A stretch of 64,000 nt of DNA, from positions 2,787 through 66,786 of the forward strand of contig WGFI01000121.1 in assembly GCA_015492295.1 (NCBI GenBank), given 5' to 3'. This document shows positions 39,756 to 52,195 of the stretch, piece by piece. The stretch's first letter is position 1, and each line of letters opens with the position of its first letter. The DNA is from a candidate division WOR-3 bacterium. GTDB taxonomy: Bacteria; Hydrothermota; Hydrothermia; LBFQ01. The notes below the pieces were generated by a model. It saw nothing but the letters and a program-made list of their open reading frames with translations, was not told the origin of the DNA and made no database searches. The translations under genes were made by a program, and so were the position numbers.

Positions 39756-41378
39756 ATGCTCTTCATAGACAGTTTGATGTATCTTGCGGGATTTACAAAT
39801 AGAGATCTCGGTTTTAAGAAAGATCTGTCCTATGAAACCGAATTAAAACCATCGGTGATTATAAATCTTTTAAATAACCCTCTGCGTGCGTTTCACTTCG
39901 TTGATTCTCTATCCAAGGAGTACAGAGAGTTTTCCTATGTGAAAGTCCTGAATCTCGTTTGGTGGGAAAAGTTTAGAAAGATAAAAGTATCAAACCGTAT
40001 GACCTACAAGGATAGCGTAATAGGGCATTTTATTGATGTCCTGCACTGCTACAATTACTTTAAAGATAGGGCATTCTCAAGGTTAAAACCTGAATTCATC
40101 AGTAAAGTTAAAACACCACTTAAAAAGTTATGGGATACGGTTGAAACTTCCGATACGCTTACGAAGGATGAGTATATGAAGTTGGCGAGAACCGTCTTAT
40201 GGAACCATCTTATGAATTCCCTTCTATGCCTCTTGAATGTTGATACATCAAAGGTTCCGAGATTAGAGGATACCGCAACTTACATATACAAAACTTTATA
40301 CGGTGATATAGCAATAGGTGGCGTAGGGAACGATATATATAAAGGGAATTTCGTTGCTATCTTGGATTTTGGTGGCGATGATGTTTATTATGTTGATAGC
40401 GAGGTTCTGATAGTTGATCTTTCCGGAGATGATGTTTATTATGGGAATGTTGGTTCGGGTTTCTTTGGCTCTTCCGCACTTTTTGACTTCAAAGGTGATG
40501 ATAAGTATATGTGCGGCGATATGTCATGCGCAAGCGGTATAATGGGATTCGGTTTCATATACGATGGTGAAGGGAACGACATCTATTACGGTGGTTATCA
40601 TTCCATCGGTGCAGGAACCTTCGGGGGAGGATTCTTGATAGACATGTCAGGCGATGATATATACAAGAGTGTTATTTACGGTCAGGGATTTGCTGGAACC
40701 TATGGCGTGGGTCTTCTTTTGGACGGATCCGGGAATGATGTATATACCATAGGATACGGACCTATACATGAGCCTCTGTATAAAACTCAACGGGAGGGTC
40801 TTGGTCAAGGGTTCAGCATAGGAATGAGGGAGGATTTTGGAGGAGGAATAGGAATACTTATGGATTTTAAAGGGAACGATGTCTATAACGCTGGAACCTA
40901 TGCCCAGGGTGTATCTTACTGGTATTCTTTGGGTATTCTGTACGATGGTGAAGGGGACGATAGATATATATGTACTCAATATTGTCAGGGCGCCGGAATC
41001 CATATATCCGTTGGGTTGCTTATGGATATATCGGGGGATGATATGTATTTTGCATTGAACGGCCCTTCCATAGGTGCGGCGCATGATCTCTCCGTGGGTT
41101 TCCTATACGATTCTCTTGGAAATGATTTCCATTACACCTATGGGGGATTAGGTATGGGATTAACGAATTCAACGGGTATTTTCGTGGATGTTTATGGAGA
41201 TGATAAGTACTATGTTATGCAATGTGATATATCCTTGGGTGGTGCCAATATTAAAAGGGAAATGGGTGGTATAGGTATGTTTGTTGATGCCCATGGGAAG
41301 GATGTTTATGGGTGTGATGTTAAAAATGGTGAAAGGTGGGTGAGGAGGATGTGGGGTATTGGATGGGATGGTGAGTAA
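39756..41378 (+). CDS. tandem-repeat protein with 12 copies of a ~26-aa G(D/N)DxY repeat; predicted beta-solenoid, possibly Ca-binding
   Basis: Repeats FGGDDVYY, LSGDDVYY, FKGDDKYM, GEGNDIYY, MSGDDIYK, GSGNDVYT, FKGNDVYN, GEGDDRYI, ISGDDMYF, SLGNDFHY, VYGDDKYY, AHGKDVYG at regular spacing. ~190-aa helical N-terminal domain. No signal peptide. Confidence 0.5.
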   Translation: MLFIDSLMYLAGFTNRDLGFKKDLSYETELKPSVIINLLNNPLRAFHFVDSLSKEYREFSYVKVLNLVWWEKFRKIKVSNRMTYKDSVIGHFIDVLHCYNYFKDRAFSRLKPEFISKVKTPLKKLWDTVETSDTLTKDEYMKLARTVLWNHLMNSLLCLLNVDTSKVPRLEDTATYIYKTLYGDIAIGGVGNDIYKGNFVAILDFGGDDVYYVDSEVLIVDLSGDDVYYGNVGSGFFGSSALFDFKGDDKYMCGDMSCASGIMGFGFIYDGEGNDIYYGGYHSIGAGTFGGGFLIDMSGDDIYKSVIYGQGFAGTYGVGLLLDGSGNDVYTIGYGPIHEPLYKTQREGLGQGFSIGMREDFGGGIGILMDFKGNDVYNAGTYAQGVSYWYSLGILYDGEGDDRYICTQYCQGAGIHISVGLLMDISGDDMYFALNGPSIGAAHDLSVGFLYDSLGNDFHYTYGGLGMGLTNSTGIFVDVYGDDKYYVMQCDISLGGANIKREMGGIGMFVDAHGKDVYGCDVKNGERWVRRMWGIGWDGE

Positions 41379-41446
41379 TTAAATCTTTTATTTCTGATAG
41401 ATGGGAGCTTTACAAGAAGTTTTTCGGCTTTATGATATTAAGATAA

Positions 41447-41544
41447 GGCGCTGGCAGGCCGTCTAATGTCTGCCCTACCCGTGGGTCGCGGGGAAGTTAA
41501 GCCCGTGGAGTGGGCTTTGCCCACGATGAAGCGGGAAGCCCCTC
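41447..41544. repeat. copy A of conserved noncoding element, with 25-nt GC-rich insertion relative to copy B
   Basis: TCTGCCCTACC at 41469-79. Hairpin GTGGGC-TTT-GCCCAC at 41511-25. GATGAAGC, 12 nt, then ATG of ORF 41545. Confidence 0.4.
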
Positions 41545-41841
41545 ATGAGGAGAAGGCCACAAGGCAGGGAATATATACCTCTTGATCCTTCGCAGCAGGA
41601 TAAGTCGTTAAATCAAATAGCTGAAATAACGATCAAAAAAATCTCATCACTCCAAGATTCGGAAGATTTGAGAAAATCCACTTTTGATGAGGAGAAAAAT
41701 ATTGATGAATCTTTAAACGAGATAGCTGAAACTTTAAAAGATTTGAACTCAAAAGAGGAAGAATTAAGAAAATGTGTGATGATTGGATTTATAATCCTCC
41801 TGCTGGTGTTGTTGCTGTTGTTTATACTATACCATCGTTGA
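41545..41841 (+). CDS. small tail-anchored coiled-coil membrane protein
   Basis: Start ATGAGGAGAAGG lies immediately after conserved element A. C-terminal TM IGFIILLLVLLLLFILY. Confidence 0.35.
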   Translation: MRRRPQGREYIPLDPSQQDKSLNQIAEITIKKISSLQDSEDLRKSTFDEEKNIDESLNEIAETLKDLNSKEEELRKCVMIGFIILLLVLLLLFILYHR

Positions 41842-42258: not shown

Positions 42259-45200
42259 TTATTCTGACAGTCTTAGATTTATGAGTTTATGCGTAGGATC
42301 AAGCATCACCTTTTCAGGTTTGAAAGTCAAAGGAATTATGAGTTTTCCGAAGCTCTCTCTTATCCTTATTCTCCTCAACTCCTTAACCTTTCCGTCCTTA
42401 TAGAAACCGATCTCAACAACATCGTTGGGTTTCAATTCGTACCTATTACCTACGCTATCATACCGAAACTTCCTAAACTCATACTCTATAAAGGCTTTCC
42501 CGTTTTCCCACCGAAACTTTTTCACACCAAAATCGTAAATGATTATGTCCTCGTACCAACCTTTTATCTGTTCCAAAAGGGTATCAGGGACTATTTCGTA
42601 GAGCATGCTGAGGAAATCCTTTGATGATGGGTAAGGTGAATGTTTATAAGAGTACTTATTCACAAACTCCCTTAGAAGACTATCAAACCTTTCCTTTCCA
42701 ATATAATCGGCGGTTGAATAATTTATCAATCCACCCTTGTTGTAGTGTATATAGGCCTGACCCTCGCTGAGATACAGTGGGGTTTCCTTGTATGTTTCCA
42801 TCTTTCTCCCTTTTAAATACCTGTCTATCTCATGTTTGAGGAACTTTGATGCATCACCGTATATATTTTCCATGACCCTTATACCCGTATATTCGGCGAA
42901 GGATTCGGAGAGGAAATGTATTCCCTTTGAGAATCTTGATATTACCTGATGAGCCCACCATTGATGCCCGACCTCATGGGATGTTACGAAAGTGGCGTAA
43001 TCTATATCCCCTTCTTTTACCTTCGCGAGGAAGCCTATATCCTCCGAAAAGGGTATAAGGGTTGCGAGGGATTGTGCAAATCTTCCAAATCTCGGAAATT
43101 CAACTATACGGAGGGTCTTGTGAGGATACGGTGAAAATCTTTCGGAAAATTTCAAACTCTCCTTCATACCTTTCAGTATTCTCTTTACATTGAAATCATG
43201 GGAAGGAAGGTAATAAATGTACAATTTCACATCGCCATAATTATCGGATACTACGGAGTATTTGCCACTTACAAAGGCGTATATGTGGAGTATCGGTTTC
43301 AAGCTCTTGTATTTAAAGAACCTCCTATTCCCCTCCTCCCAACTTCCGACCAACTCGCCTGGTGCCAAAGCAACCTGATTCGCGGATGTGGATACTACGG
43401 CCTCAAAATTCACCCAATCGGCATCGTTGATCATGGTTATATTTGAGATTCTCGGATCGTCAATATCGGGATATGCATCCTTTGGAGGTAGGCCATACTT
43501 TTTTCTCAAATTCCTGTTTTTAATCTCCCTATCCCGCATATACCCAAAAATGGGATAATTCCCCGACAGAAATGTGCCGTTTTCAAAAACCCCACACCTC
43601 GTATCAAAACCGTCAATTATACCCTTGGGTTCGCACGATATTTTAAACTCCACATAGAATCTATCCCCCGGTTTCAAAGGCTTCACAAATTCGTATATTA
43701 CAACACCCAACTCCTTATCCTTATGAATCTCTTTAACAGGTACGCTAAACCTTATAAATTCAAGTTTTTTATGAGTTTCGCTTTTGGCAGGTATATTCAC
43801 GAACAATCTACTTATGGCACGCGAGATTTTATTTTCTACCCAGAACTTTCCATAGGTATATACGCTTCTCCTCTTGGGATATATATCAACTCTCAGAAAG
43901 ACATCCGTTATCTTTGGCAGGGGCATATATTCGTACTTTGAGTAAAGCTTCTCATATTTTACCCTCATTCTTCTACTTTCCTCCCTTGATAGGAAACGAT
44001 TGAACACATAATGGTTATACCAAAGATATATCCCACTTACTACGAACACTACGAACGAAAGGGCCAAAACGGCCCCGTTTTTAATATTGATGGAGGAAAG
44101 CATCTTTTTGAGTCTCCCTTTAAAACCCGTAAAGTTTTCGGTGTATAAAAGGAAAGCCAAAGTTATGAATATCAAAGATAATCCTCCCCAATATACTCTG
44201 TACGCCAATAAAGTCTTTATGAAATGCCCATAACCGAAAAAGTCCGAATACTCTATGAGGGGATAAAAAGGGAATCGTATTATACTGTATTGGAATATCT
44301 TCGTTTCCAAGTTTGAAATGAACAGAATTCCTAAGAGGTATCCCATAAATAGCATATGCCCTACGAATTTATTCCTTACTATGGAATGAATCAGCAGGGA
44401 TAATGTTGAGAGATACACGATGGTTAAATAAGGTTCCAGCATAAGCCTTTTGATGTACAGGAATATCTCAAACCTGTAATATCCATTTATCGCTTGATAT
44501 ACGACTCCGCATATAATATACACAAAAATCAGAATACCTAAGAAAATCAGCATTCCTATGAACCTACCTAAGAGCAGGTATGGGAACATGGGTGAGGTGC
44601 CCAACATCTCAGAGGTTAGATTATCTTTATCCCTGTTTATGATCTCTCCCGCAATCAGGGTGGTCAGAATCATATAGAACAGAAGAACATTTCCTTGAAT
44701 AACACTTGTAAGTAAAGAGGTCGTGGGATATACGGGTGTATCATAAATGATATTTACACCGTAGAGGTTAGGTATGAGAACGATTATGGAAACAAGGATT
44801 ATACCGAGTATCGCGTAGGATCTCCTCAAATATTTTATCTCAAATAGGGCGGTGTGGATGATGAATTTTAAGATGTTAAAGGAGGGGACATACTTTGGTT
44901 TTTCAAGATAAACCTTAATTTCCTCTTGTACGAGTTTCCTGCCTTTCTCCTCCTTCTCTTTTAAGTTAAAAAACCTATAAGATACGAACAGGATGACAAT
45001 ACCAACGAGAAGCCATAGGATTCTATTGAATGTTATAGACATAGACCAAGGAATACTTTGCGTGTTCAGCTGGGCAGATGTCCAGTATTTTATAGTTTCG
45101 CTGAATGCGGAAAATCCGAAAGGATCAAGATATATTGATAGTTTCTCAAGTTTTAATATACCCATAAGCGTTGATGAAACTATCCATAAGGCGAAGAATA

Positions 45201-45747
45201 ATACACCTCCGAGGTAGGCTATGAACTCCTTTCTGGTTGCGGCGGTGATGCCGAAGAACAAGGATGAGAACAGAAATGTGTTTGGTATTCCGAACTGTAA
45301 TATTGGATTCAGATAGTGATAAAGGTTCATAGGACCGAGTTTTTCCTTATCCACCCAAGGAGCAAAATTGCCAAGAATCTGGCCAATAAGTATGAAAATG
45401 AGTATGGCTAATGAGATTACAAAGCTTCCTACGAGTCTCCCGAAGAAGTATTCGCTTTTCCTTATAGGAGATGTGAATATAAACTCGTAGGTCTTGTCCC
45501 TTATATCCCTATAAGCGGAGTTGGATGCAACATACGAGATTATGAATATGCCGAACATATAGGATACGAGGAAGGAGAAGGTTATCATATAGGGAGAGTT
45601 TTTTAAGATGTTAGTTTCCGAAGCTCCAAGTCTTATAAAGTCGGAAGTTATGAGTAAGAAACCCATAAGAGACAGTATAAAACTTAGAAAATAAAACGCC
45701 CTCGTTTTCAGCCAAAATTTTACCTCAAACAGTATGATACCCAACAT
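42259..45747 (-). CDS. fused ABC-2 family permease / M1 family aminopeptidase
   Basis: ~12 TM helices in the N-terminal 650 aa. C-terminal gluzincin motif VTSHEVGHQWWAH plus downstream E (LSESFAEY), giving HExxH-x18-E of the M1 family. Confidence 0.7.
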   Translation of the reverse strand: MLGIILFEVKFWLKTRAFYFLSFILSLMGFLLITSDFIRLGASETNILKNSPYMITFSFLVSYMFGIFIISYVASNSAYRDIRDKTYEFIFTSPIRKSEYFFGRLVGSFVISLAILIFILIGQILGNFAPWVDKEKLGPMNLYHYLNPILQFGIPNTFLFSSLFFGITAATRKEFIAYLGGVLFFALWIVSSTLMGILKLEKLSIYLDPFGFSAFSETIKYWTSAQLNTQSIPWSMSITFNRILWLLVGIVILFVSYRFFNLKEKEEKGRKLVQEEIKVYLEKPKYVPSFNILKFIIHTALFEIKYLRRSYAILGIILVSIIVLIPNLYGVNIIYDTPVYPTTSLLTSVIQGNVLLFYMILTTLIAGEIINRDKDNLTSEMLGTSPMFPYLLLGRFIGMLIFLGILIFVYIICGVVYQAINGYYRFEIFLYIKRLMLEPYLTIVYLSTLSLLIHSIVRNKFVGHMLFMGYLLGILFISNLETKIFQYSIIRFPFYPLIEYSDFFGYGHFIKTLLAYRVYWGGLSLIFITLAFLLYTENFTGFKGRLKKMLSSINIKNGAVLALSFVVFVVSGIYLWYNHYVFNRFLSREESRRMRVKYEKLYSKYEYMPLPKITDVFLRVDIYPKRRSVYTYGKFWVENKISRAISRLFVNIPAKSETHKKLEFIRFSVPVKEIHKDKELGVVIYEFVKPLKPGDRFYVEFKISCEPKGIIDGFDTRCGVFENGTFLSGNYPIFGYMRDREIKNRNLRKKYGLPPKDAYPDIDDPRISNITMINDADWVNFEAVVSTSANQVALAPGELVGSWEEGNRRFFKYKSLKPILHIYAFVSGKYSVVSDNYGDVKLYIYYLPSHDFNVKRILKGMKESLKFSERFSPYPHKTLRIVEFPRFGRFAQSLATLIPFSEDIGFLAKVKEGDIDYATFVTSHEVGHQWWAHQVISRFSKGIHFLSESFAEYTGIRVMENIYGDASKFLKHEIDRYLKGRKMETYKETPLYLSEGQAYIHYNKGGLINYSTADYIGKERFDSLLREFVNKYSYKHSPYPSSKDFLSMLYEIVPDTLLEQIKGWYEDIIIYDFGVKKFRWENGKAFIEYEFRKFRYDSVGNRYELKPNDVVEIGFYKDGKVKELRRIRIRESFGKLIIPLTFKPEKVMLDPTHKLINLRLSE

Positions 45748-46597
45748 GGTAAAAGTACGCCTCTTCTAAGGAGGGGGCAACTGGCTCCCAGGAATCGCGT
45801 AAAGGTTTATCGCTATACACCGATACGAACATCCTACCTCCTTTTAAATGAACATTAAGGATCCGATAATTCTCTTTTATAGTTTCAATCTCCTCCTTTG
45901 ATATTTCTCTGCGAAATACCTTCCCTTTAAGCGAGGATATTATTTCATCCGGTTTTCCCCTAACTATGATTCTCCCATCTTTTATTATCGCCATATCATC
46001 GCACAGCTCTTCAACATCACCCACTATATGGGTTGATAGTATAACCAACCTATTCTCACCCAGTTCGGATAGAAGATTTAAGAATCTCCTCCTTTCCGCC
46101 GGATCCAATCCTGCCGTTGGTTCATCCACTATTAAAACCTCCGGATTCCCAAGAAGCGCAACCGCTATTCCAAACCTCTGCTTCATCCCTCCCGAAAATT
46201 CCCCGAGTTTCCTTTTTCTATCCTTATAAAGATTTACCCTATCCAAGAGATAATCAACCAATCTTTTTCTCTCTTTTGATGAGGTGAAACCTTTCAAGTA
46301 AGCGAAATGTTCAAGCATTTCATAGGCCGATACATTCTTATAAACCCCAAACTCCTGAGGCAAATATCCGAGAACCCTCTTAAACCTTTCAGGTTCTTTA
46401 AGAATATTTATATCCTTCCATATAACCTCTCCCTTATCAGGTTCAAGTAAGGTCGCTATTATCCGCATTAATGTTGTTTTTCCTGCACCGTTTGGCCCTA
46501 AGAGGCCGAACATACCATAGGAGATTTCAAGGTTTATATTCTCCAAAGCTCTGATACCTCCCGGATATGTCTTTGAAAGACCTTTTACGATCAGCAT
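45725..46597 (-). CDS. ABC transporter ATP-binding protein
   Basis: Walker A GLLGPNGAGKTT. Signature LSGGMKQR. Walker B LIVDEPT. Overlaps the permease start (translational coupling). Confidence 0.85.
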   Translation of the reverse strand: MLIVKGLSKTYPGGIRALENINLEISYGMFGLLGPNGAGKTTLMRIIATLLEPDKGEVIWKDINILKEPERFKRVLGYLPQEFGVYKNVSAYEMLEHFAYLKGFTSSKERKRLVDYLLDRVNLYKDRKRKLGEFSGGMKQRFGIAVALLGNPEVLIVDEPTAGLDPAERRRFLNLLSELGENRLVILSTHIVGDVEELCDDMAIIKDGRIIVRGKPDEIISSLKGKVFRREISKEEIETIKENYRILNVHLKGGRMFVSVYSDKPLRDSWEPVAPSLEEAYFYHVGYHTV

Positions 46598-46742: not shown

Positions 46743-47019
46743 TTTACAGAAAGCCCTGCATAATAGACTTTGAGCGAAACTGGGTAAAAATTCAAGAGAT
46801 TGGAGAGTGGTTTAGGGTTTTAAGACTTAAACAAATAGATACTATCTGCCATCAATGGAAGCAGGAGAGCTGTTATCAGCCAACTTTAACGACGGTAGGG
46901 AAGTTTGACCAAAAAGACTTCAAAAATTTTGGCAAGGAAATACATTAAGCGGGGTTATTTGGGAAAAAGTGTGGATTTAGGCGAAGTATTGAGCTTGGTC
47001 AAAGAGTTTTTGAGTGTCC

Positions 47020-47092
47020 GATTGAAGTCTGCCCTACCGTAAAGTGGGCTCTGCCCAAGATGAAGCCCTTTATCAAAGATGAGGGGAGGAGG
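47020..47092. repeat. copy B of conserved noncoding element (TCTGCCCTACC ... AGTGGGCTYTGCCCAMGATGAAGC - N12 - ATGAGGRGARGG)
   Basis: Direct comparison with copy A at 41447..41544. Identical 11-mer, 24-mer (2 mismatches) and 12-nt spacing to an ATGAGG start. Confidence 0.4.
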
Positions 47093-48472
47093 TCACCTAC
47101 GAATCCCTTTTATCACCTTTCCATCACCAATTTTGAGATATATACCTCTCAAAGATTCTTTCCTCCTTCTTCCTGAAATATCATATATACCTTTACCATT
47201 TGGAGTGGAGGTGTAAAGTGTTTCTGAAAAAGAAAGGGCATGGATGGGTATGATGGAGAGATATATGTCAAGATGGGAGGTTGTATCACGCAGATCACCC
47301 CAAACGACATATATAGAAGTGTCTCCTATGGCGCAGGAAAGGAAATCGTTTCCGGATAGTGTCAAGAGGGTGTCGTACTCGGATGGAGAACCGGAAACGA
47401 GAAAATTTTCACTGAAAGTGTATCCACCATCATAAGATATACTTCCATATATCTCAAAAGGCACCTCTCCACCCATCCCTCCATTTCTCCTATCCCTCCA
47501 AAAAAATGCGACTATGGAATCCTTGGAGCAACCCCACAGCATATCCTGATAAACCCCATTTCCCACAGGATCATCGTTAAGTCTAAACGGAAGACTCCAT
47601 GTCGTTCCCCCATCCGTACTCCTTTGAGCTACGGCATCCGGATCCCCAAAACTGGCATCTATACGCGTGATAAGTAGAATACCCGAGTTTGGTACATACA
47701 CAAGGGGACTTCCCTTTTTTAGGTTAGAATCCGATACGCTTGCCGAGCTTAAATCTATAACCGTACGATAGGAAAAAGTGGCTCCCCCATCATTACTGAC
47801 GGCCAGCATGTGCCTTGGCAGTGGATAAAAGGAAGGATTATAAGAGAAATACCCTACGAAGACGGTGGAATCTCCGGATAATGCTATCTGTCCCATAGAA
47901 CGCACATAAGCGGGGTAATTGGTTGTATCTCCGATTTCCTGTAAAGGGCTCCACGACGATCCCCCATCATGGGAGTACTTGATATAGAGATGATAAGGGG
48001 GTGTCGCTCCCATAACTTTGGTTTCTAAGGTGGTGATGTATATGCTTGATCCTGATACTACTATCCACGGGCGATCTATCGGGTAATCCGGTGCTTCATC
48101 GTATCTGATTATGATTCGGGGTGAAGACCAAGTCATTCCACCGTCATTTGATACCGATAGAACGACAAAGCCAGAATCATTAGAAAAATCAATATAAACA
48201 AGGTAAAGCGTGCCATCCTCGGAAAACGCCAAAGCTGGATCGGCGGATTTAAATCCGCTAACTATATGGGGCATGGGATATATGGGGGACCATGTTCTAC
48301 CTCCATCTAAGGAGTACCTCACAGCTATGACCGATGTACCGAAGGCTGCCCGTATCCACGCCACAACTACATTGTTTGGATTCGTAGGATTCACTGCCAC
48401 CACCGGCTCACCATCAAAAGCCGGCGAATTGGATAGGTTGATCTCATAAAAAGAAAAAAGTATTCCGATCAT
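47093..48472 (-). CDS. BNR/Asp-box repeat (sialidase-like) protein with T9SS C-terminal sorting domain
   Basis: Asp-boxes SLDGGRTW, SNDGGMTW, SHDGGSSW, SNDGGATF, STDGGTTW. C-terminus GIYLKIGDGKVIKGIRR. Paralog of 19034..20407. Confidence 0.65.
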   Translation of the reverse strand: MIGILFSFYEINLSNSPAFDGEPVVAVNPTNPNNVVVAWIRAAFGTSVIAVRYSLDGGRTWSPIYPMPHIVSGFKSADPALAFSEDGTLYLVYIDFSNDSGFVVLSVSNDGGMTWSSPRIIIRYDEAPDYPIDRPWIVVSGSSIYITTLETKVMGATPPYHLYIKYSHDGGSSWSPLQEIGDTTNYPAYVRSMGQIALSGDSTVFVGYFSYNPSFYPLPRHMLAVSNDGGATFSYRTVIDLSSASVSDSNLKKGSPLVYVPNSGILLITRIDASFGDPDAVAQRSTDGGTTWSLPFRLNDDPVGNGVYQDMLWGCSKDSIVAFFWRDRRNGGMGGEVPFEIYGSISYDGGYTFSENFLVSGSPSEYDTLLTLSGNDFLSCAIGDTSIYVVWGDLRDTTSHLDIYLSIIPIHALSFSETLYTSTPNGKGIYDISGRRRKESLRGIYLKIGDGKVIKGIRR

Positions 48473-48538
48473 ATACTATTAGATTTGGAAAGGTTCCCCC
48501 TTGCTTCACATCCTTTTCCGCTTTAAAATATTCATATC

Positions 48539-48991
48539 ATGTTGATTCTACTTTTAACTCAGGTAAAAGTTGATATTGTGGATGTTATCGGAAATTTTCT
48601 CATACTCGGTAAGAAGGAAACTTCCTCCTATGTCATTATGAGCATAGGTGAGAGTGAGGCATTCTCAATAAGGATAGCCTTGGACAATGTAAAGTTTGAG
48701 AGGCCATTGTCCCATGATCTTATGAAAAACATCCTGGATATATCGGGTTTCAGACCTATAAAGGTGGTAATATACGATGTAAAAAACGGTGCATATTTGG
48801 CGAAGATACATCTTGAAAAGGGTTTTTGGATATTCAAGCAGAAGGTTGTACTTGATAGCAGGCCATCGGATGCGGTTGCGATAGCCCTGAGATACAATAT
48901 ACCGATATATGTTATGCCCCACCTGTTTATAAATCCCCTTGAAATACAACCCGATACCATAAAAATACCGAAAGGAGGGATAGAAGGTTGA
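48539..48991 (+). CDS. bifunctional nuclease family protein (DUF151)
   Basis: PLSHDLMKNIL and DSRPSDAVAIALRYNIPIYV match DUF151 conserved blocks. Confidence 0.6.
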   Translation: MLILLLTQVKVDIVDVIGNFLILGKKETSSYVIMSIGESEAFSIRIALDNVKFERPLSHDLMKNILDISGFRPIKVVIYDVKNGAYLAKIHLEKGFWIFKQKVVLDSRPSDAVAIALRYNIPIYVMPHLFINPLEIQPDTIKIPKGGIEG

Positions 48992-49821
48992 TGAATTTTG
49001 AAAGGGAATTCATAAATCATCTCGTATCTTCGGGAAAAAGTGATAACACGGTAAAATCTTATATGTACGATTTGGATTATCTTAAAAGATTCGCCGAGTA
49101 TATGGGCAAATCTCCATTGAGTCTCTCAAAGGAAGATATGAGATATTTTATACCTTTCTTGCAGAACAATTCCCTAAGTCCAAAAAGCATTGAAAGGATA
49201 ACCTCCGCTATTAGGAAGTATTACGGTTTTCTTGTAAAGAGGGGTTATGTACATTCCGACCCAACCAAAGGGATTCAGAGGATCAAAAAACCCAAAAGGG
49301 TTCCGAGAGTGGTTGAGAAGGAAAAGATATTTAAGATCCTTAAAGAATGGAAACCCAACAACGATGAGGAAACTCTGGCAAAAGATTTGATATTGGTTAT
49401 TTATTCTACGGGTATGAGGATAAGCGAGATTCTGAATTTAAAGGGTGAGGATATAAACTTTGAGGAAAGGAGTATATATATAAAGGGCAAAGGTGGTAAG
49501 CACAGGAAAGTACCTTTCAACGATATAACCTATACTATACTGAAAAGGAGATTTAAGGATGAGAGAACCAGAATATTTAACATCAGCAGATTTAAAGCTT
49601 ACAGGCTGATAAAAGAGGCATTTGAAAAATATGCGGGTTTAAGCGGCGTCCATCCGCATATACTCAGACATTCGTTTGCCACACATTTACTTGAAAACGG
49701 TGCCGATATAAAAACCGTTCAGCAGCTTTTAGGGCATTCCTCCCTATCATCAACGGAGATTTATACGCGGGTATCTTTGAGGCATATAAGGAAGATATAC
49801 GATGAGGTATGGGAAGGATAA
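48988..49821 (+). CDS. xerD: tyrosine site-specific recombinase, XerC/XerD family
   Basis: C-terminal HPHILRHSFATHLLENGADIKTVQQLLGHSSLSSTEIYTRV (R..H..R..Y catalytic box II). SAM-like N-terminal domain. Confidence 0.8.
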   Translation: MMNFEREFINHLVSSGKSDNTVKSYMYDLDYLKRFAEYMGKSPLSLSKEDMRYFIPFLQNNSLSPKSIERITSAIRKYYGFLVKRGYVHSDPTKGIQRIKKPKRVPRVVEKEKIFKILKEWKPNNDEETLAKDLILVIYSTGMRISEILNLKGEDINFEERSIYIKGKGGKHRKVPFNDITYTILKRRFKDERTRIFNISRFKAYRLIKEAFEKYAGLSGVHPHILRHSFATHLLENGADIKTVQQLLGHSSLSSTEIYTRVSLRHIRKIYDEVWEG

Positions 49822-49862
49822 AATCAACAGACAAAAATTTTCACCCTTATAATATCCGCACG

Positions 49863-50462
49863 ATGGCAAAGGCTAAGAGAAAGATGTCGGCATCCACCAT
49901 AAGATTGCAAGAGTTTAGTGTGGTAGGTGGCCTTGGAAAGAAAGGCTACGATATAGATGAAGTCAGGGATTTCTTAAATCAAGTGGCGAGATATGTGGAT
50001 GAACTTGAAAAGAAGTTAGAATCCTCCGCTGGACAGACCTCTCAGGATACGACATTACTTGAAGCCCAGATAGAGCAGCTTACCGAGGAGAATGAGAATT
50101 TGAAGAAGGAGATTGAAAGGTTGAAGAAGGAAAACGCCGAACTTAAAAGTAAGGGAGGGAGTGGTCCCAAGTGGGAGGATATTCCTAAGGAGCTTCTGGC
50201 AAATGAGGTTATAATGGCAGCCAAGAGAGCGGGAGATAGTTTAATAGAGGAAAAGAAACGGGAAGCGGAAAAGATTCTTGAAAATGCTAAGAAAGAGCTT
50301 CAGGAGATAAATTTCCAGTTGGCAAAGGCTAAGGAGGAGCTGAAAAGCGTTGAGAATCAGAAGAGTCAGATACTTTCAAAACTCGATGAGGTGAAGAGAC
50401 AGGTTAAAAATGAAATCCTTACGCTTGCTAAAAAGGTGGAGGATTTCGCCAATAAGTTATAA
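49863..50462 (+). CDS. DivIVA domain protein
   Basis: GYDIDEVRDFLNQVARYVDELE matches the DivIVA N-terminal domain. Long coiled coil. The start is uncertain (ORF track 49809; Met codons at 49863 and 49884). Confidence 0.6.
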   Translation: MAKAKRKMSASTIRLQEFSVVGGLGKKGYDIDEVRDFLNQVARYVDELEKKLESSAGQTSQDTTLLEAQIEQLTEENENLKKEIERLKKENAELKSKGGSGPKWEDIPKELLANEVIMAAKRAGDSLIEEKKREAEKILENAKKELQEINFQLAKAKEELKSVENQKSQILSKLDEVKRQVKNEILTLAKKVEDFANKL

Positions 50463-50464
50463 GA

Positions 50465-52195
50465 ATGCTAAGAATAAAGGTTTTTATAGGTGAGAGGGAG
50501 AAGATTATAACGATAAACAAGTTTCCTTTCGTAATAGGGGGTTCCGTAAAGAGCGATTTATTCGTTATAGGCCTTCCTCCTGAATATGCCGTCATAGATA
50601 AGAAAGGGGATGCTTTCGTATTAAAGGCATCGGGTCATGGTATTTCCACCCAAAATTACAAGGATATAAAGGAGATAGAACTCGCTCCTGGGATGGAATT
50701 GAATATCGCGGGAAAAATGAGAATAGAGATCTTAGAGGCTCCTCAACCCACGACCACAAGCCAACCTACCCAATTTCTTGAAGCGGAGGAACCACCATAC
50801 TTCAAAATCATAAGCGGACCGGGTGCGGGAGGAGTTATAGAGATATTCTCCTCGGGGATTCTTGGACGAGAGGAAGGTGTAGAATACAAGGTTGAGGATC
50901 CCCACACTTCCAGGAAACATCTCGTGATACATTTCTTGGGGGACATAGTAGAGGTTGAAAATCTGAGTCAAACCAATCCCACATTGTTGAATGGAAAGGT
51001 TATAAAGGAGCGCGTTAGACTGAAATCGGGGGATATACTCAAAGTCGGTAGGATGACTTTACTCTTCGTGAATCCTGCCGAGAAACCGGAAACCGAACTT
51101 ATGGCTAAGCAGGCGCCCACAAAGTGGATATTCGCAGCCGTCGGTATTATATTCCTCGTTATATTAGGAACATCCGCATTTTTATACATAAATCAACGCA
51201 AGGGGGAGGCCAGGAGTTCGTTGAGTTTGGCAATATCAACCTTTACAGCTGCCGAAAACGAATCCGATCCGACGAAGGTTTATAAAAATTATATGTTAGC
51301 CGTGCAGTACGCGCAAAAGGCTTTGAGTCTTGACGGATCATTAACCCAAGCGAAGGATTATATTAGAAAGGCTGACAGCTTATCAAAGGCTTGGAAGGAG
51401 GTATCTGAGGCCCAGAATCTCGCCAAAGAAGGAAAGATTGAAGAGGCTATGGAAAAACTTGATAAAGTAAGACCGATACTCGGGGATAGATTGCTCTTCA
51501 ACGAGATATACGCACCTTTGGCGAACAGATTGTCCGCTATTCAAAATGTTGAAATGGCCAAGGCGCTCATTCAGAAAGGGGATTATAAACGGGCTCTGGT
51601 ATTCATAGAGTCCGCCCTTGAAAGTGATCCCGAGAACGAAGAATTATTGGCCTTAAAGGCCACCGTGGAGAAGTTTTCAAAGTTAAAAAGACCCGTAAAG
51701 GTTGAGGTTATAAAGAAGGCTTTTGCCAAGAGCGTTAAACAAATAAAGGAAAGCAAACCTAAGAAAACTAAGAAAACCGCACAAAAAACCAAAGGGGGCG
51801 GTATGCCTAAAACCACATCAATAAAGCTCTCGAAGGGACCCTCACTCTCAACGGAAACCAATATAAAACTTCCCAAGATAGACATCTCACTTGATCAACC
51901 CAAGGCGACCATAAGCTTGAATACGGGAACCATAGATAAGAGAACGCGTATGATACAGGCGTATAAGAATGGTGATCTGACAACAACATTGAGACTTGCG
52001 ACCGAAATATTGTCCGAGAATCCAAAGGATTACACCGCCAAGAGGTACCAACAGCTCGCCCAACTTGAAAGGAAAGCTAAGGCTTATGAAAGGGCGGGAG
52101 ATAAGCAGAGCGCCTTAAAGGTTTGGCAAATGGTTTTAAGATACGATAAGAATAATCCGAGGGCTTTGAAGGCCATATCAAGGTTAAAAATGTAA
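50465..52195 (+). CDS. FHA domain membrane protein with C-terminal TPR-like repeats
   Basis: FHA core GREEGVEYKVEDPHTSRKHLVI...NLSQTNPTLLNGKVI. Single TM WIFAAVGIIFLVILGTSAFLYI. TPR-like helical repeats. Lys-rich linker. Confidence 0.6.
   Translation: MLRIKVFIGEREKIITINKFPFVIGGSVKSDLFVIGLPPEYAVIDKKGDAFVLKASGHGISTQNYKDIKEIELAPGMELNIAGKMRIEILEAPQPTTTSQPTQFLEAEEPPYFKIISGPGAGGVIEIFSSGILGREEGVEYKVEDPHTSRKHLVIHFLGDIVEVENLSQTNPTLLNGKVIKERVRLKSGDILKVGRMTLLFVNPAEKPETELMAKQAPTKWIFAAVGIIFLVILGTSAFLYINQRKGEARSSLSLAISTFTAAENESDPTKVYKNYMLAVQYAQKALSLDGSLTQAKDYIRKADSLSKAWKEVSEAQNLAKEGKIEEAMEKLDKVRPILGDRLLFNEIYAPLANRLSAIQNVEMAKALIQKGDYKRALVFIESALESDPENEELLALKATVEKFSKLKRPVKVEVIKKAFAKSVKQIKESKPKKTKKTAQKTKGGGMPKTTSIKLSKGPSLSTETNIKLPKIDISLDQPKATISLNTGTIDKRTRMIQAYKNGDLTTTLRLATEILSENPKDYTAKRYQQLAQLERKAKAYERAGDKQSALKVWQMVLRYDKNNPRALKAISRLKM

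What the first reader, a model, noticed from the sequence alone, without database searches (positions are those of the whole stretch)
41447..41544. Two copies of a conserved noncoding element 5.5 kb apart, each ending at an ATGAGG(R)GA(R)GG start codon
Copy A (41447-41544) and copy B (47020-47092) share the following blocks, which I read directly.
- The 11-mer TCTGCCCTACC.
- A 24-mer AGTGGGCT(T/C)TGCCCA(C/A)GATGAAGC containing a GC hairpin (GTGGGC-TTT-GCCCAC in A; TGGGC-TCT-GCCCA in B).
- Exactly 12 non-conserved nucleotides, then ATGAGGAGAAGG (A) or ATGAGGGGAGGAGG (B).
Copy A carries an extra 25-nt GC-rich insertion (CGTGGGTCGCGGGGAAGTTAAGCCCGTGG) that can form alternative pairings (CGTGGGC with GCCCACG). 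In A the ATG is the start of the small tail-anchored ORF 41545-41841. In B the ATG opens a ~50-codon ORF antisense to the 3' end of the BNR gene, 340 bp downstream of tRNA-Ala. Conserved primary sequence plus a preserved hairpin with loop variation, and fixed spacing to a purine-rich start, suggest a structured RNA leader, a protein-binding site overlapping translation initiation, or a small repetitive/mobile unit. It matches no element I can name from memory.
Basis: seen in the sequence. Interest (0 to 1): 0.65.

Follow-up and report, generated by a model that had tools for sequence, protein, structure and literature searches.

The report
Two decayed TnpB transposon guide-RNA remnants
The two "conserved noncoding elements" are worn-down right ends of two insertion sequences of the IS200/IS605 family, the part that in intact copies encodes the scaffold of the guide RNA used by the TnpB nuclease. 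The finding is real but ordinary genomic debris, not a new regulatory leader.

Summary
The repeat is real. Both blocks occur exactly twice in 64 kb, against 0 expected by chance.

It is not a leader. In related genomes the same sequence, extended to about 125 nt, forms the 3' end of a 424-436 aa tnpB gene. There it runs to a sharp boundary, ...GGAGGAGGTCAC, after which the flanks are unrelated. That layout is what a TnpB guide-RNA (omegaRNA) scaffold overlapping an IS200/IS605 right end looks like.

- **Copy A (41440-41560)** is a 5'-truncated relic, 92-94% identical to intact copies. It keeps a RAGATH-18-type k-turn hairpin, but its guide-proximal hairpin has collapsed.
- **Copy B** is the end of a 349-nt, multiply deleted tnpB pseudogene (46748-47096). 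It inserted at a TTAC one base after tRNA-Ala and on the stop codon of the BNR gene.
- **"ATGAGG"** is the 3' arm of the terminal hairpin (GATGAGGGG). The equal 12-nt spacing comes from two different deletions.
- **The 98-aa ORF** has no homologue.
- **No intact tnpB** lies in the window.
- **Rfam hits** are only sub-threshold: RAGATH-18 at 33 bits (cut-off 44.9) and HgcC at 31.6 bits (cut-off 50, on homologues only).

Verdict: decayed members of a known kind. Low interest.

The parts
41440..41560 (+). Relic A: a 5'-truncated remnant of the last ~120 nt of a tnpB-only IS200/IS605-family element. This is the 3' module of the TnpB omegaRNA scaffold, which is also the tnpB C-terminal coding region and the right end.
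   Evidence: blastn gives 92.5% identity to L075 IS positions 1391-1497, 94% to L013, and 91-92% to L067 and L027. tblastn matches TnpB residues 389-424 at 83-86%. The CM scores 95.8 bits. Nothing upstream is IS-like.
41453..41474 (+). First hairpin of the 3' module: GGCAGGC, loop CGTCTAAT, GTCTGCC.
   Evidence: Read from the sequence. The same position is a hairpin of different sequence in subfamily 2 (GGAG..CTCC and GGAT..ATCC).
41502..41535 (+). k-turn hairpin: CCCGT / GGA / GTGGGC-TTT-GCCCAC / GATGAA / GCGGG.
   Evidence: Rfam RAGATH-18 match of 33 bits, E=1.4e-4, below the gathering score of 44.9. The key positions -1b:-1n C:G, 3b:3n A:G and 4b:4n G:U equal those of the solved RAGATH-18 k-turn (PMC8191799). 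The segment alone folds with z=-2.98.
41539..41560 (+). Collapsed terminal hairpin and mutated right-end terminus: CCCCTCAT|GAGG-AGAAGGCCAC against the consensus CCCCTCATCTCTGATGAGGGGAGGAGGTCAC. The ATG at 41545 lies inside it.
   Evidence: The CM alignment shows a 6-nt loop deletion, a 2-nt deletion and two substitutions. See also the alignment.
46744..46747 (+). TTAC, the probable insertion target and TAM of relic B. It starts one base after the cmscan-called end of tRNA-Ala (46742), or directly after ARAGORN's end (46743).
   Evidence: TTAC directly precedes the left end in independent insertions of subfamilies 1 and 2 and of mini elements. tRNA coordinates are.
46748..47096 (+). Relic B: a multiply deleted IS. 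It holds a left-end fragment, tnpB pseudogene pieces and an omegaRNA/right-end remnant. About 349 nt are left of roughly 1.4-1.5 kb.
   Evidence: Colinear blastn pieces map L075 IS 635-723, 935-969, 1257-1312 and 1454-1520 to window 46749-46837, 46907-46940, 46966-47021 and 47037-47096. tblastn pieces fall in different frames. The left-end words TTTACAGAAA and AGAAAGCCCTGC match with p~0-0.01 in 300 shuffles.
47027..47096 (+). It holds the 3' arm of the first hairpin, the small hairpin TGGGC-TCT-GCCCA, GATGAAGC, an intact terminal hairpin (47066-47086) and the right-end terminus AGGAGGTCAC (47087-47096). The second helix and the k-turn partners are deleted or mutated.
   Evidence: CM alignment at 21.9 bits. 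See also the alignments.
47093..47095 (-). Stop codon TGA of the BNR gene, supplied by the right-end terminus (GGTCAC read on the other strand).
   Evidence: Removing 46748-47096 restores AGG TAA from the TTAC target. BNR homologues end at the same residue (...KVIRR).

Best explanation
Both copies are decayed remnants of two separate insertions of a tnpB-only (IS1341-type) insertion sequence of the IS200/IS605 family. The shared blocks are the 3' module of the element's omegaRNA, the guide-RNA scaffold of the TnpB nuclease. In intact copies this module overlaps the last ~36 codons of tnpB and the transposon's right end.

**How an intact element works.**
- Shown here: the anatomy. TTAC is followed by a left end with a subterminal hairpin, then tnpB, then a right end with a similar hairpin ending in TCAC.
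- Inferred by analogy with ISDra2 and ISFba1 TnpB: the RNA is transcribed through the right end. The scaffold binds TnpB. The ~16-20 nt of flanking sequence then act as the guide that directs cleavage of TTAC-adjacent matching DNA, which helps the element persist.

**State of the window copies.**
- Copy A kept only the last ~120 nt, and its guide-proximal hairpin has collapsed.
- Copy B kept both ends but lost about three quarters of its interior, including the k-turn.
- No intact tnpB lies within 64 kb.

They are therefore most likely inert fossils. The "ATGAGG start" is the 3' arm of the terminal hairpin.
For: **Homologues carry the element at the end of tnpB.**
- In L067, L075/L082, L078, L027, L083, L087, L097, L107, L112, L113, L115 and L122 the same element sits at the 3' end of a tnpB ORF.
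- The ORFs match Pfam OrfB_IS605 and Cas12f1-like_TNB.
- They match NCBIfam guided_TnpB at 146 bits against a cut-off of 100.
- The best solved relative is ISDra2 TnpB, E=6e-21.

**The boundaries are those of a transposon.**
- Homology stops at ...GG(A/T)(G/A)(G/T)TCAC and the flanks are unrelated.
- The left ends start after TTAC and carry a hairpin resembling the right-end hairpin.

**The window copies map onto the IS.**
- Copy A matches the last 107 nt of the IS at 92-94% identity.
- Copy B shows four colinear IS pieces.
- The CM finds only these two sites in the window.

**RNA structure.**
- The terminal hairpin has compensatory changes at 2 pairs in 12 cells. 99% of cells are paired, against 50-57% when partners are slid.
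- Sub-threshold Rfam similarity points to two families already tied to tnpB. These are RAGATH-18 (PMC11061315) and HgcC (PMC4615843).

**Insertion-site reconstruction.** It restores the BNR stop codon.
Against: - No transcript data exist for any copy.
- The guide-RNA function of this particular family is inferred from homology, not shown.
- Copy A is still 92-94% identical to intact copies and has a sigma70-like TTTACA-16-TATGAT just upstream. Residual expression, or use in trans, is therefore not excluded.
- The rest of this genome could not be searched for an intact tnpB.
- No orthologous empty site was found. BNR homologues in relatives have different neighbours.
- The TnpBs of this subfamily have Q in place of the RuvC-II glutamate, so even intact copies may not be standard nucleases.
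Confidence: 0.9

Rival explanations
1. Copy A is a still-functional orphan guide RNA, or an sRNA derived from it. It would be transcribed from its own promoter and used in trans by a TnpB encoded elsewhere in the genome, or it would be bound by a k-turn-binding protein.
For: - Copy A is 92-94% identical to intact copies over 107 nt and scores 95.8 bits against the CM.
- Its k-turn hairpin is intact.
- A sigma70-like promoter at 41409-41436 ends 3 nt before the element.
- tnpB-less mini elements that keep the RNA modules are common in this family (L013, L080, L086, L110, L114, L125).
- The contig of GCA_027016755.1 breaks inside relic B, which hints at further copies in that genome.
Against: - The terminal hairpin and the GGGGAGGAGGTCAC terminus are the most conserved and covarying parts of the family. 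In copy A they are collapsed and mutated.
- Copy A lacks the 5' module that the mini elements retain.
- It has no left end.
- The promoter count is no higher than in shuffled sequence.
- No tnpB lies in the window.
Confidence: 0.06
2. The element is a cis-acting structured leader or protein-binding site that controls initiation at a conserved purine-rich ATGAGG start of small ORFs.
For: - Both copies end at ATGAGG with equal 12-nt spacing.
- A gene caller called ORF 41545-41841 in one assembly.
- A promoter-like site lies upstream of copy A.
Against: - In about 20 homologous loci the element follows or overlaps tnpB, and the downstream sequence is unrelated.
- The ATG is the 3' arm of a covarying hairpin.
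- The two 12-nt spacers are non-homologous products of different deletions.
- The 98-aa ORF has no homologue and no family hit.
- The ORF after copy B is antisense to a conserved BNR gene.
- No good Shine-Dalgarno sequence precedes 41545 (sequence).
Confidence: 0.02
3. The two copies are direct repeats (att-like sites) bounding a 5.5-kb mobile island next to tRNA-Ala, or the ends of a composite transposon.
For: - The copies have the same orientation and lie 5.5 kb apart, with a tRNA gene at one end.
- A tyrosine recombinase gene lies at 48988-49821.
Against: - Each copy is explained on its own as an IS right end. Relic B has its own TTAC and left-end fragment on the inner side.
- The interval encodes an ABC transporter, an M1 peptidase fusion and the tRNA, with no recombinase.
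- The recombinase lies outside the repeats and looks XerC/D-like.
- The repeats do not overlap the tRNA.
Confidence: 0.02

Closest known systems
TnpB omegaRNA (reRNA) encoded at the tnpB 3' end and right end of IS200/IS605 elements (ISDra2; PMC8612924, PMC10097598)
   Same: - Homologues show the same layout. The scaffold overlaps the 3' end of tnpB and runs to a sharp right-end boundary followed by variable flank.
- The TnpB has a RuvC fold and a zinc finger.
- Left and right ends have subterminal hairpins.
- The target is a TTAC-type tetranucleotide, as in IS608 (from knowledge of IS608).
   Different: - The scaffold shows no detectable sequence similarity to the ISDra2 omegaRNA.
- The TnpB is only distantly related (E=6e-21) and has Q at the RuvC-II glutamate position.
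- The window copies are truncated or deleted and have no tnpB.
HgcC RNA family (Rfam RF00062) and the sotRNAs of IS1341-type tnpB genes (PMC4615843)
   Same: - Both are GC-rich structured RNAs in an AT-rich thermophile genome. Copy A has 62% GC against 42% for the window.
- Both have a terminal hairpin followed by GGGGAGGAGGTCA(C/G).
- Both have a GAG[hairpin]CGATGA motif.
- Both sit at the 3' end of tnpB or in tnpB-less PATE-like derivatives.
   Different: - Homologues reach only 31.6 and 27.9 bits against a gathering score of 50.
- The window copies give no HgcC hit at E<=10.
- HgcC was described in methanogens and Thermococcales (from memory), whereas these homologues come from Aquificota-type MAGs.
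RAGATH-18 RNA (Rfam RF03064), the core of the IS607 TnpB reRNA (PMC11061315)
   Same: - The k-turn has the same key positions (C:G, A:G, G:U) and nearly the same flanking sequence: CCnGUGGAGUG...CACGAUGAAGCnGGAA.
- Both are part of a TnpB guide-RNA scaffold.
   Different: - The score is 33 bits against a gathering score of 44.9, with 39 of 71 model positions absent.
- Here the motif lies inside the tnpB coding region. The IS607 reRNA is separate from the ORF.
- The TnpB scores higher with the IS200/IS605 model than with the IS607 model (103 vs 55 bits).
- The ends are IS605-like hairpins.
PATEs / MITE-like derivatives of IS200/IS605 (fused left and right ends; PMC4615843)
   Same: Family members L013, L114, L125, L080 and L086 are tnpB-less elements with TTAC, a left end and a right end. 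Relic B likewise keeps both ends with the interior deleted.
   Different: - Relic B has ragged multiple deletions and 72-91% identity across its four pieces, so it looks like decay rather than a propagating mini element.
- Relic A has no left end at all.

Membership tests
IS200/IS605-family tnpB element (omegaRNA / right end) | The element lies at, and overlaps, the 3' end of a tnpB gene encoding a RuvC and zinc-finger protein. | tested here: met
   - Met in homologues: L067, L075, L078, L027, L083, L087, L097, L107, L112, L113, L115 and L122.
- In the window, copy B follows tnpB pseudogene pieces.
- Copy A still "encodes" TnpB residues 389-424 at 83-86% identity.
IS200/IS605-family tnpB element (omegaRNA / right end) | There is a sharp right-end boundary with unrelated flanks (the guide position) in independent insertions. 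| tested here: met
   Homology ends at ...TCAC in about 25 loci with different flanks. The window copies end at 41560 and 47096.
IS200/IS605-family tnpB element (omegaRNA / right end) | Left and right ends carry subterminal hairpins, and the element inserts 3' of a conserved tetranucleotide. | tested here: met
   - TTAC precedes the left end in subfamilies 1 and 2 and in mini elements.
- The left-end hairpin GCCCCCCATC..GATGGGGGG resembles the right-end hairpin GCCCCTCATC..GATGAGGGG.
- Relic B has TTAC at 46744-46747 and left-end words.
- Relic A has no left end.
IS200/IS605-family tnpB element (omegaRNA / right end) | The RNA is transcribed, bound by TnpB and guides DNA cleavage. | not testable with these tools
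   No expression or biochemical data exist. The function is inferred from ISDra2 and ISFba1 (PMC8612924, PMC11061315).
RAGATH-18 (RF03064) | The score reaches Rfam's gathering threshold over the full model. | tested here: not met
   Copy A and L082 score 33.0 bits against 44.9, with the 39 central model positions deleted. Copy B gives no hit. Subfamily 3, which has a long insert, gives no hit either.
RAGATH-18 (RF03064) | A k-turn with -1b:-1n C:G, tandem G:A/A:G pairs, 3b:3n A:G and 4b:4n G:U. | tested here: met
   Copy A has C41524:G41510, G41528:A41509, A41529:G41508, A41530:G41507 and G41531:U41506, matching Table 1 of PMC8191799. In copy B the motif is destroyed (GGA changed to AAA, and the outer stem lost).
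RAGATH-18 (RF03064) | Association with an IS607-type TnpB, with the RNA separate from the ORF. | tested here: not met
   NCBIfam IS200_TnpB scores 103 bits against 55 bits for IS607_TnpB. The motif lies inside the tnpB ORF. No tnpA gene lies between the left end and tnpB, and the ends are hairpins.
HgcC (RF00062) | The score reaches Rfam's gathering threshold. | tested here: not met
   L086 scores 31.6 bits and L078 scores 27.9 bits, against 50. The window copies give no hit at E<=10.
cis-regulatory leader / riboswitch | A conserved position upstream of homologous genes. | tested here: not met
   Downstream genes differ in every locus. The window ORF 41545-41841 has no homologue.

The most novel reading that the evidence does not exclude
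Copy A has been exapted rather than merely left behind. In this reading it is a promoter-proximal, k-turn-bearing RNA made from a dead transposon end. It would serve either as an orphan guide or decoy for a TnpB encoded elsewhere, or as the 5' leader and start codon of a new lineage-specific 98-aa tail-anchored protein. A wider corollary is that the RAGATH-18-type k-turn module is an ancient core shared by IS607 reRNAs, archaeal HgcC RNAs and this IS605-type, ORF-embedded omegaRNA.
Probability: 0.07. Interest if true: 0.4.

Novelty: new member of a known kind. Interest (0 to 1): 0.15.

Why it matters
The practical value is for annotation. A GC-rich, well-folding, repeated "noncoding element" in an AT-rich thermophile genome can be recognised as a TnpB guide-RNA or right-end fossil, even where no tnpB gene survives and no Rfam family reaches threshold.

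The family recovered around it has some wider interest:
- It has three subfamilies in hot-environment MAGs and metagenomes.
- It has many tnpB-less mini elements.
- It has a k-turn of the RAGATH-18 type inside the tnpB coding region.
- Its TnpBs have a rearranged RuvC-II motif.

This modestly extends the catalogue of omegaRNA scaffolds. It also hints that the RAGATH-18, HgcC and IS605-type scaffolds share a core module.

For the window itself nothing new in kind is present. The two copies mark two old insertions. One landed exactly between a tRNA gene and the stop codon of a convergent gene without damaging either.

Tried and rejected
1. **Rfam at gathering thresholds** found only the two tRNAs.
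2. **Whole-region folding** of either strand was no better than shuffled sequence (z between -0.98 and +1.21). Only the 44-nt k-turn hairpin of copy A stands out (z=-2.98).
3. **The genome-collection scan** with GTGGGCNNNGCCCANGATGAAGC returned 76 loci. Of these, 72 are coding-sequence coincidences in GC-rich genomes, mostly one conserved ...GTGGGCGAAGCCCATGATGAAGCC... gene. Only L013, L027, L067 and L075 are real.
4. **The metagenome scan** also returned about 20 unrelated GC-rich hits. One recurrent GC-rich group (L091, L100, L118, L123, L126) is not next to a tnpB and was dropped.
5. **A left end upstream of copy A** was looked for and not found (p~0.04-0.97).
6. **An orthologous empty site** was sought through BNR-gene homologues. 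Synteny is not conserved and no tRNA lies nearby, so the insertion is supported only by reconstruction.
7. **Two alternative folds** of the duplicated CCCGTGGA/GCGGGGAAG segments were compared. One has two separate stem-loops and the other a three-way junction. Covariation cannot separate them: 99.0% against 99.2% of cells paired, with one extra compensatory pair for the junction.
8. **Membership of RAGATH-18 or HgcC** was rejected on score.
9. **The att-site or island reading** was rejected on gene content and on each copy having its own IS anatomy.

Full report
**1. The observation**

The two copies exist as described.
- GTCTGCCCTACC occurs exactly at 41468 and 47027.
- The 24-mer AGTGGGCTYTGCCCAMGATGAAGC occurs only at 41509 and 47043. 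With three mismatches allowed, 100 shuffles gave no match.
- The hairpins, the 12-nt gaps and the ATGAGG strings can be read directly from the sequence.

**2. First lead**

Rfam at gathering thresholds sees only two tRNAs. In E-value mode, copy A (41502-41537) matches RAGATH-18 at 33 bits. The gathering score is 44.9, E=1.4e-4, and the 39 central model positions are deleted. What matches is a hairpin with a GGA / GAUGAA internal loop. Copy B gives nothing.

RAGATH-18 is the core of the guide RNA of IS607 TnpB nucleases (PMC11061315). Its internal loop is a crystallographically confirmed k-turn with -1b:-1n C:G, 3b:3n A:G and 4b:4n G:U (PMC8191799). Copy A has exactly these positions.

None of the ORFs flanking either copy is a TnpB.

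**3. Homologues elsewhere**

Two collection scans were run.
- A scan of 185,579 species genomes with the hairpin-plus-GATGAAGC pattern gave 76 loci. Four are true homologues: L013, L027, L067 and L075. They have low GC, and two of them (L067, L075) are labelled Aquificales or Aquificota MAGs.
- A metagenome scan with CGATGAAGCGGGAAGCCCC added about 25 more loci in three subfamilies.

These reveal the full element, about 125 nt:

AAGGCGCTGGCAGACCGCCTAATGTCTGCCCTACCCGTGGACCGCGGGGAAGTAACGCCCGTGGAGTGGGCTTTGCCCACGATGAAGCGGGAAGCCCCTCATCTCTGATGAGGGGAGGAGGTCAC

After this sequence every locus differs.

**4. What the homologues are**

In L067, L075/L082, L078, L027, L083, L087, L097, L107, L112, L113, L115 and L122 the element is the 3' end of a 414-436 aa ORF. 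The evidence that this ORF is tnpB is as follows.
- It matches Pfam OrfB_IS605 and Cas12f1-like_TNB.
- It matches NCBIfam guided_TnpB at 146 bits against a cut-off of 100. The IS200_TnpB model scores higher than the IS607_TnpB model.
- Its best solved relative is ISDra2 TnpB (8H1J, E=6e-21).

The ORF reads through the element as ...ALADRLMSALPVDCGEVTPVEWALPTMKREAPHL*, and its stop codon lies in the loop of the terminal hairpin.

Upstream, homology between independent insertions begins right after TTAC. The left end has a hairpin (GCCCCCCATC-tgt-GATGGGGGG) like the one at the right end, and no tnpA lies between the left end and tnpB.

This is the anatomy of a tnpB-only (IS1341-type) member of the IS200/IS605 family, whose omegaRNA scaffold overlaps the tnpB 3' end.

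Two further points fit this reading.
- Rfam's HgcC family was earlier linked to the 3' ends of IS1341-type tnpB genes (PMC4615843). It gives sub-threshold hits on homologues: 31.6 and 27.9 bits against 50. The hits align the terminal hairpin and GGGGAGGAGGTCA.
- Several loci (L013, L114, L125, L080, L086, L110) are tnpB-less mini elements. Five of them (all but L110) show TTAC and a left end. All keep the RNA modules and the right end, so they resemble PATEs.

**5. RNA structure**

An 18-sequence alignment (A2) gives a consensus with three elements.
- A small stem-loop.
- The k-turn stem-loop.
- A terminal hairpin.

In the counts, 99% of cells are paired, against 50-57% when partners are slid. 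Twelve cells carry compensatory changes, all in the terminal hairpin.

The segments CCCGTGGA and GCGGG(G)AAG each occur twice. A three-way-junction fold therefore fits equally well and gains one compensatory pair from L110. This was left undecided.

**6. The window copies mapped on the IS**

*No other copies.* A covariance model (R1) run without filters finds only the two copies. Copy A at 41439-41560 scores 95.8 bits and copy B at 46998-47096 scores 21.9 bits.

*Copy A.*
- It matches the last 107 nt of the IS at 92-94% identity.
- Nothing upstream is IS-like, and there is no left end.
- Its terminal hairpin has lost its loop, and the terminus reads GAGGAGAAGGCCAC.

*Copy B.*
- It is the tail of four colinear IS pieces at 46749-46837, 46907-46940, 46966-47021 and 47037-47096. 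The protein matches fall in different frames.
- It is preceded by TTAC (46744-46747) and by left-end words.
- It begins one base after tRNA-Ala.
- It has lost the second helix and the k-turn partners. It keeps the terminal hairpin and AGGAGGTCAC.

*The insertion site of relic B.*
- The BNR gene on the other strand stops at TGA inside the right-end terminus.
- Deleting 46748-47096 would give AGG TAA from the TTAC target.
- Homologues end at the same residue.
- The element therefore inserted exactly at the stop codon and changed only TAA to TGA.

**7.

- The "insertion" in A is a deletion in B.
- The ATG is the hairpin's 3' arm (GATGAGGGG).
- The equal 12-nt spacing comes from two different deletions.
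- ORF 41545-41841 has no homologue in 5.8 billion proteins and no family hit.
- The ORF after copy B is antisense to the conserved BNR gene.

**8. Mechanism**

*Shown:* the IS anatomy, homology and structure conservation.

*Inferred from characterised TnpB systems (PMC8612924, PMC11061315):* in intact copies the RNA binds TnpB and uses the flank as guide next to a TTAC TAM.

*For the window:* both copies are most likely inert. No tnpB lies in the window, essential parts are missing and the decay is ragged.

A residual role for copy A cannot be excluded. It has high identity, an intact k-turn, and a TTTACA-16-TATGAT site at 41409-41436. That site is not above shuffle expectation.

**9. Verdict**

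This is a real repeat with an ordinary cause: two fossils of a known kind of mobile element. The omegaRNA family behind them is not captured by current Rfam thresholds. Interest is low.

Noticed in passing
L067 969-2279(-), L075 364-1638(-), and tnpB ORFs in L078, L087, L097, L107, L112, L113: The TnpBs of subfamilies 1 and 2 have Q where subfamily 3 (L094, L095) has the RuvC-II catalytic glutamate (FIAVQRDDIKGW against VICLEDLDVKDM). An invariant D lies two residues later. This looks like one of the "RuvC-II rearranged" TnpB clades of PMC10691335.
   Followed up: partly
L013, L114, L125, L080, L086, L110 (element coordinates): These are tnpB-less mini elements that keep the omegaRNA modules and the right end. 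All but L110 also show TTAC and a left end. L013 also has a TGATATAAT promoter-like box and a 5' RNA module that lies about 270 nt upstream in full-length copies. This suggests the intervening coding sequence is dispensable for the RNA.
   Followed up: partly
window 47093-47095 (-) and 46744-46747: The IS relic supplies the BNR gene's stop codon (TGA). The reconstructed empty site gives TAA from the TTAC target at the same codon. tRNA-Ala and the BNR gene were therefore originally only about 1-4 nt apart, tail to tail.
   Followed up: yes
L114 9045-9121 and about 9130 onward: Another mini element of this family is inserted at a TTAC 9 nt downstream of a tRNA-Arg gene. This parallels relic B next to tRNA-Ala. 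It may be chance, or a preference for sites just after tRNA genes.
   Followed up: no
L067 213-4048: The intact IS in this Aquificales MAG sits between cas6 and a cas8b/TM1802 gene of a CRISPR-Cas locus.
   Followed up: no
window 46936: Contig JALUSD010000176.1 of GCA_027016755.1 equals window 46936-51377, so it ends inside relic B. An assembly break there hints that related IS copies exist elsewhere in that genome.
   Followed up: partly
window 39756-41378 (+): This 540-aa ORF has internal repeats (YDGEGND and GDDVYYG-like; families D1 and D4) and no Pfam or NCBIfam hit.
   Followed up: no
window 47096-48472 (-) and its homologues: The closest named homologue of the BNR protein (68% identity) is from a candidate division WOR-3 MAG. 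The best IS matches are in Aquificota-labelled MAGs. The host may therefore be WOR-3-like, and the IS family may be shared among thermophiles.
   Followed up: no
L094, L101, L111, L124, L095: Subfamily 3 of the RNA carries a ~60-nt structured insert inside the k-turn hairpin and ends in GGGGTAGTTCAC. CUACCC(C) upstream is complementary to GGGGUAG at the end. L110 shows the same complementarity, so this is a possible pseudoknot. It was not tested.
   Followed up: no
window 42259-45747 (-): This 1162-aa ORF combines ABC-2 type permease domains with a C-terminal M1 peptidase domain. It lies next to an ABC ATPase gene at 45725-46597.
   Followed up: no
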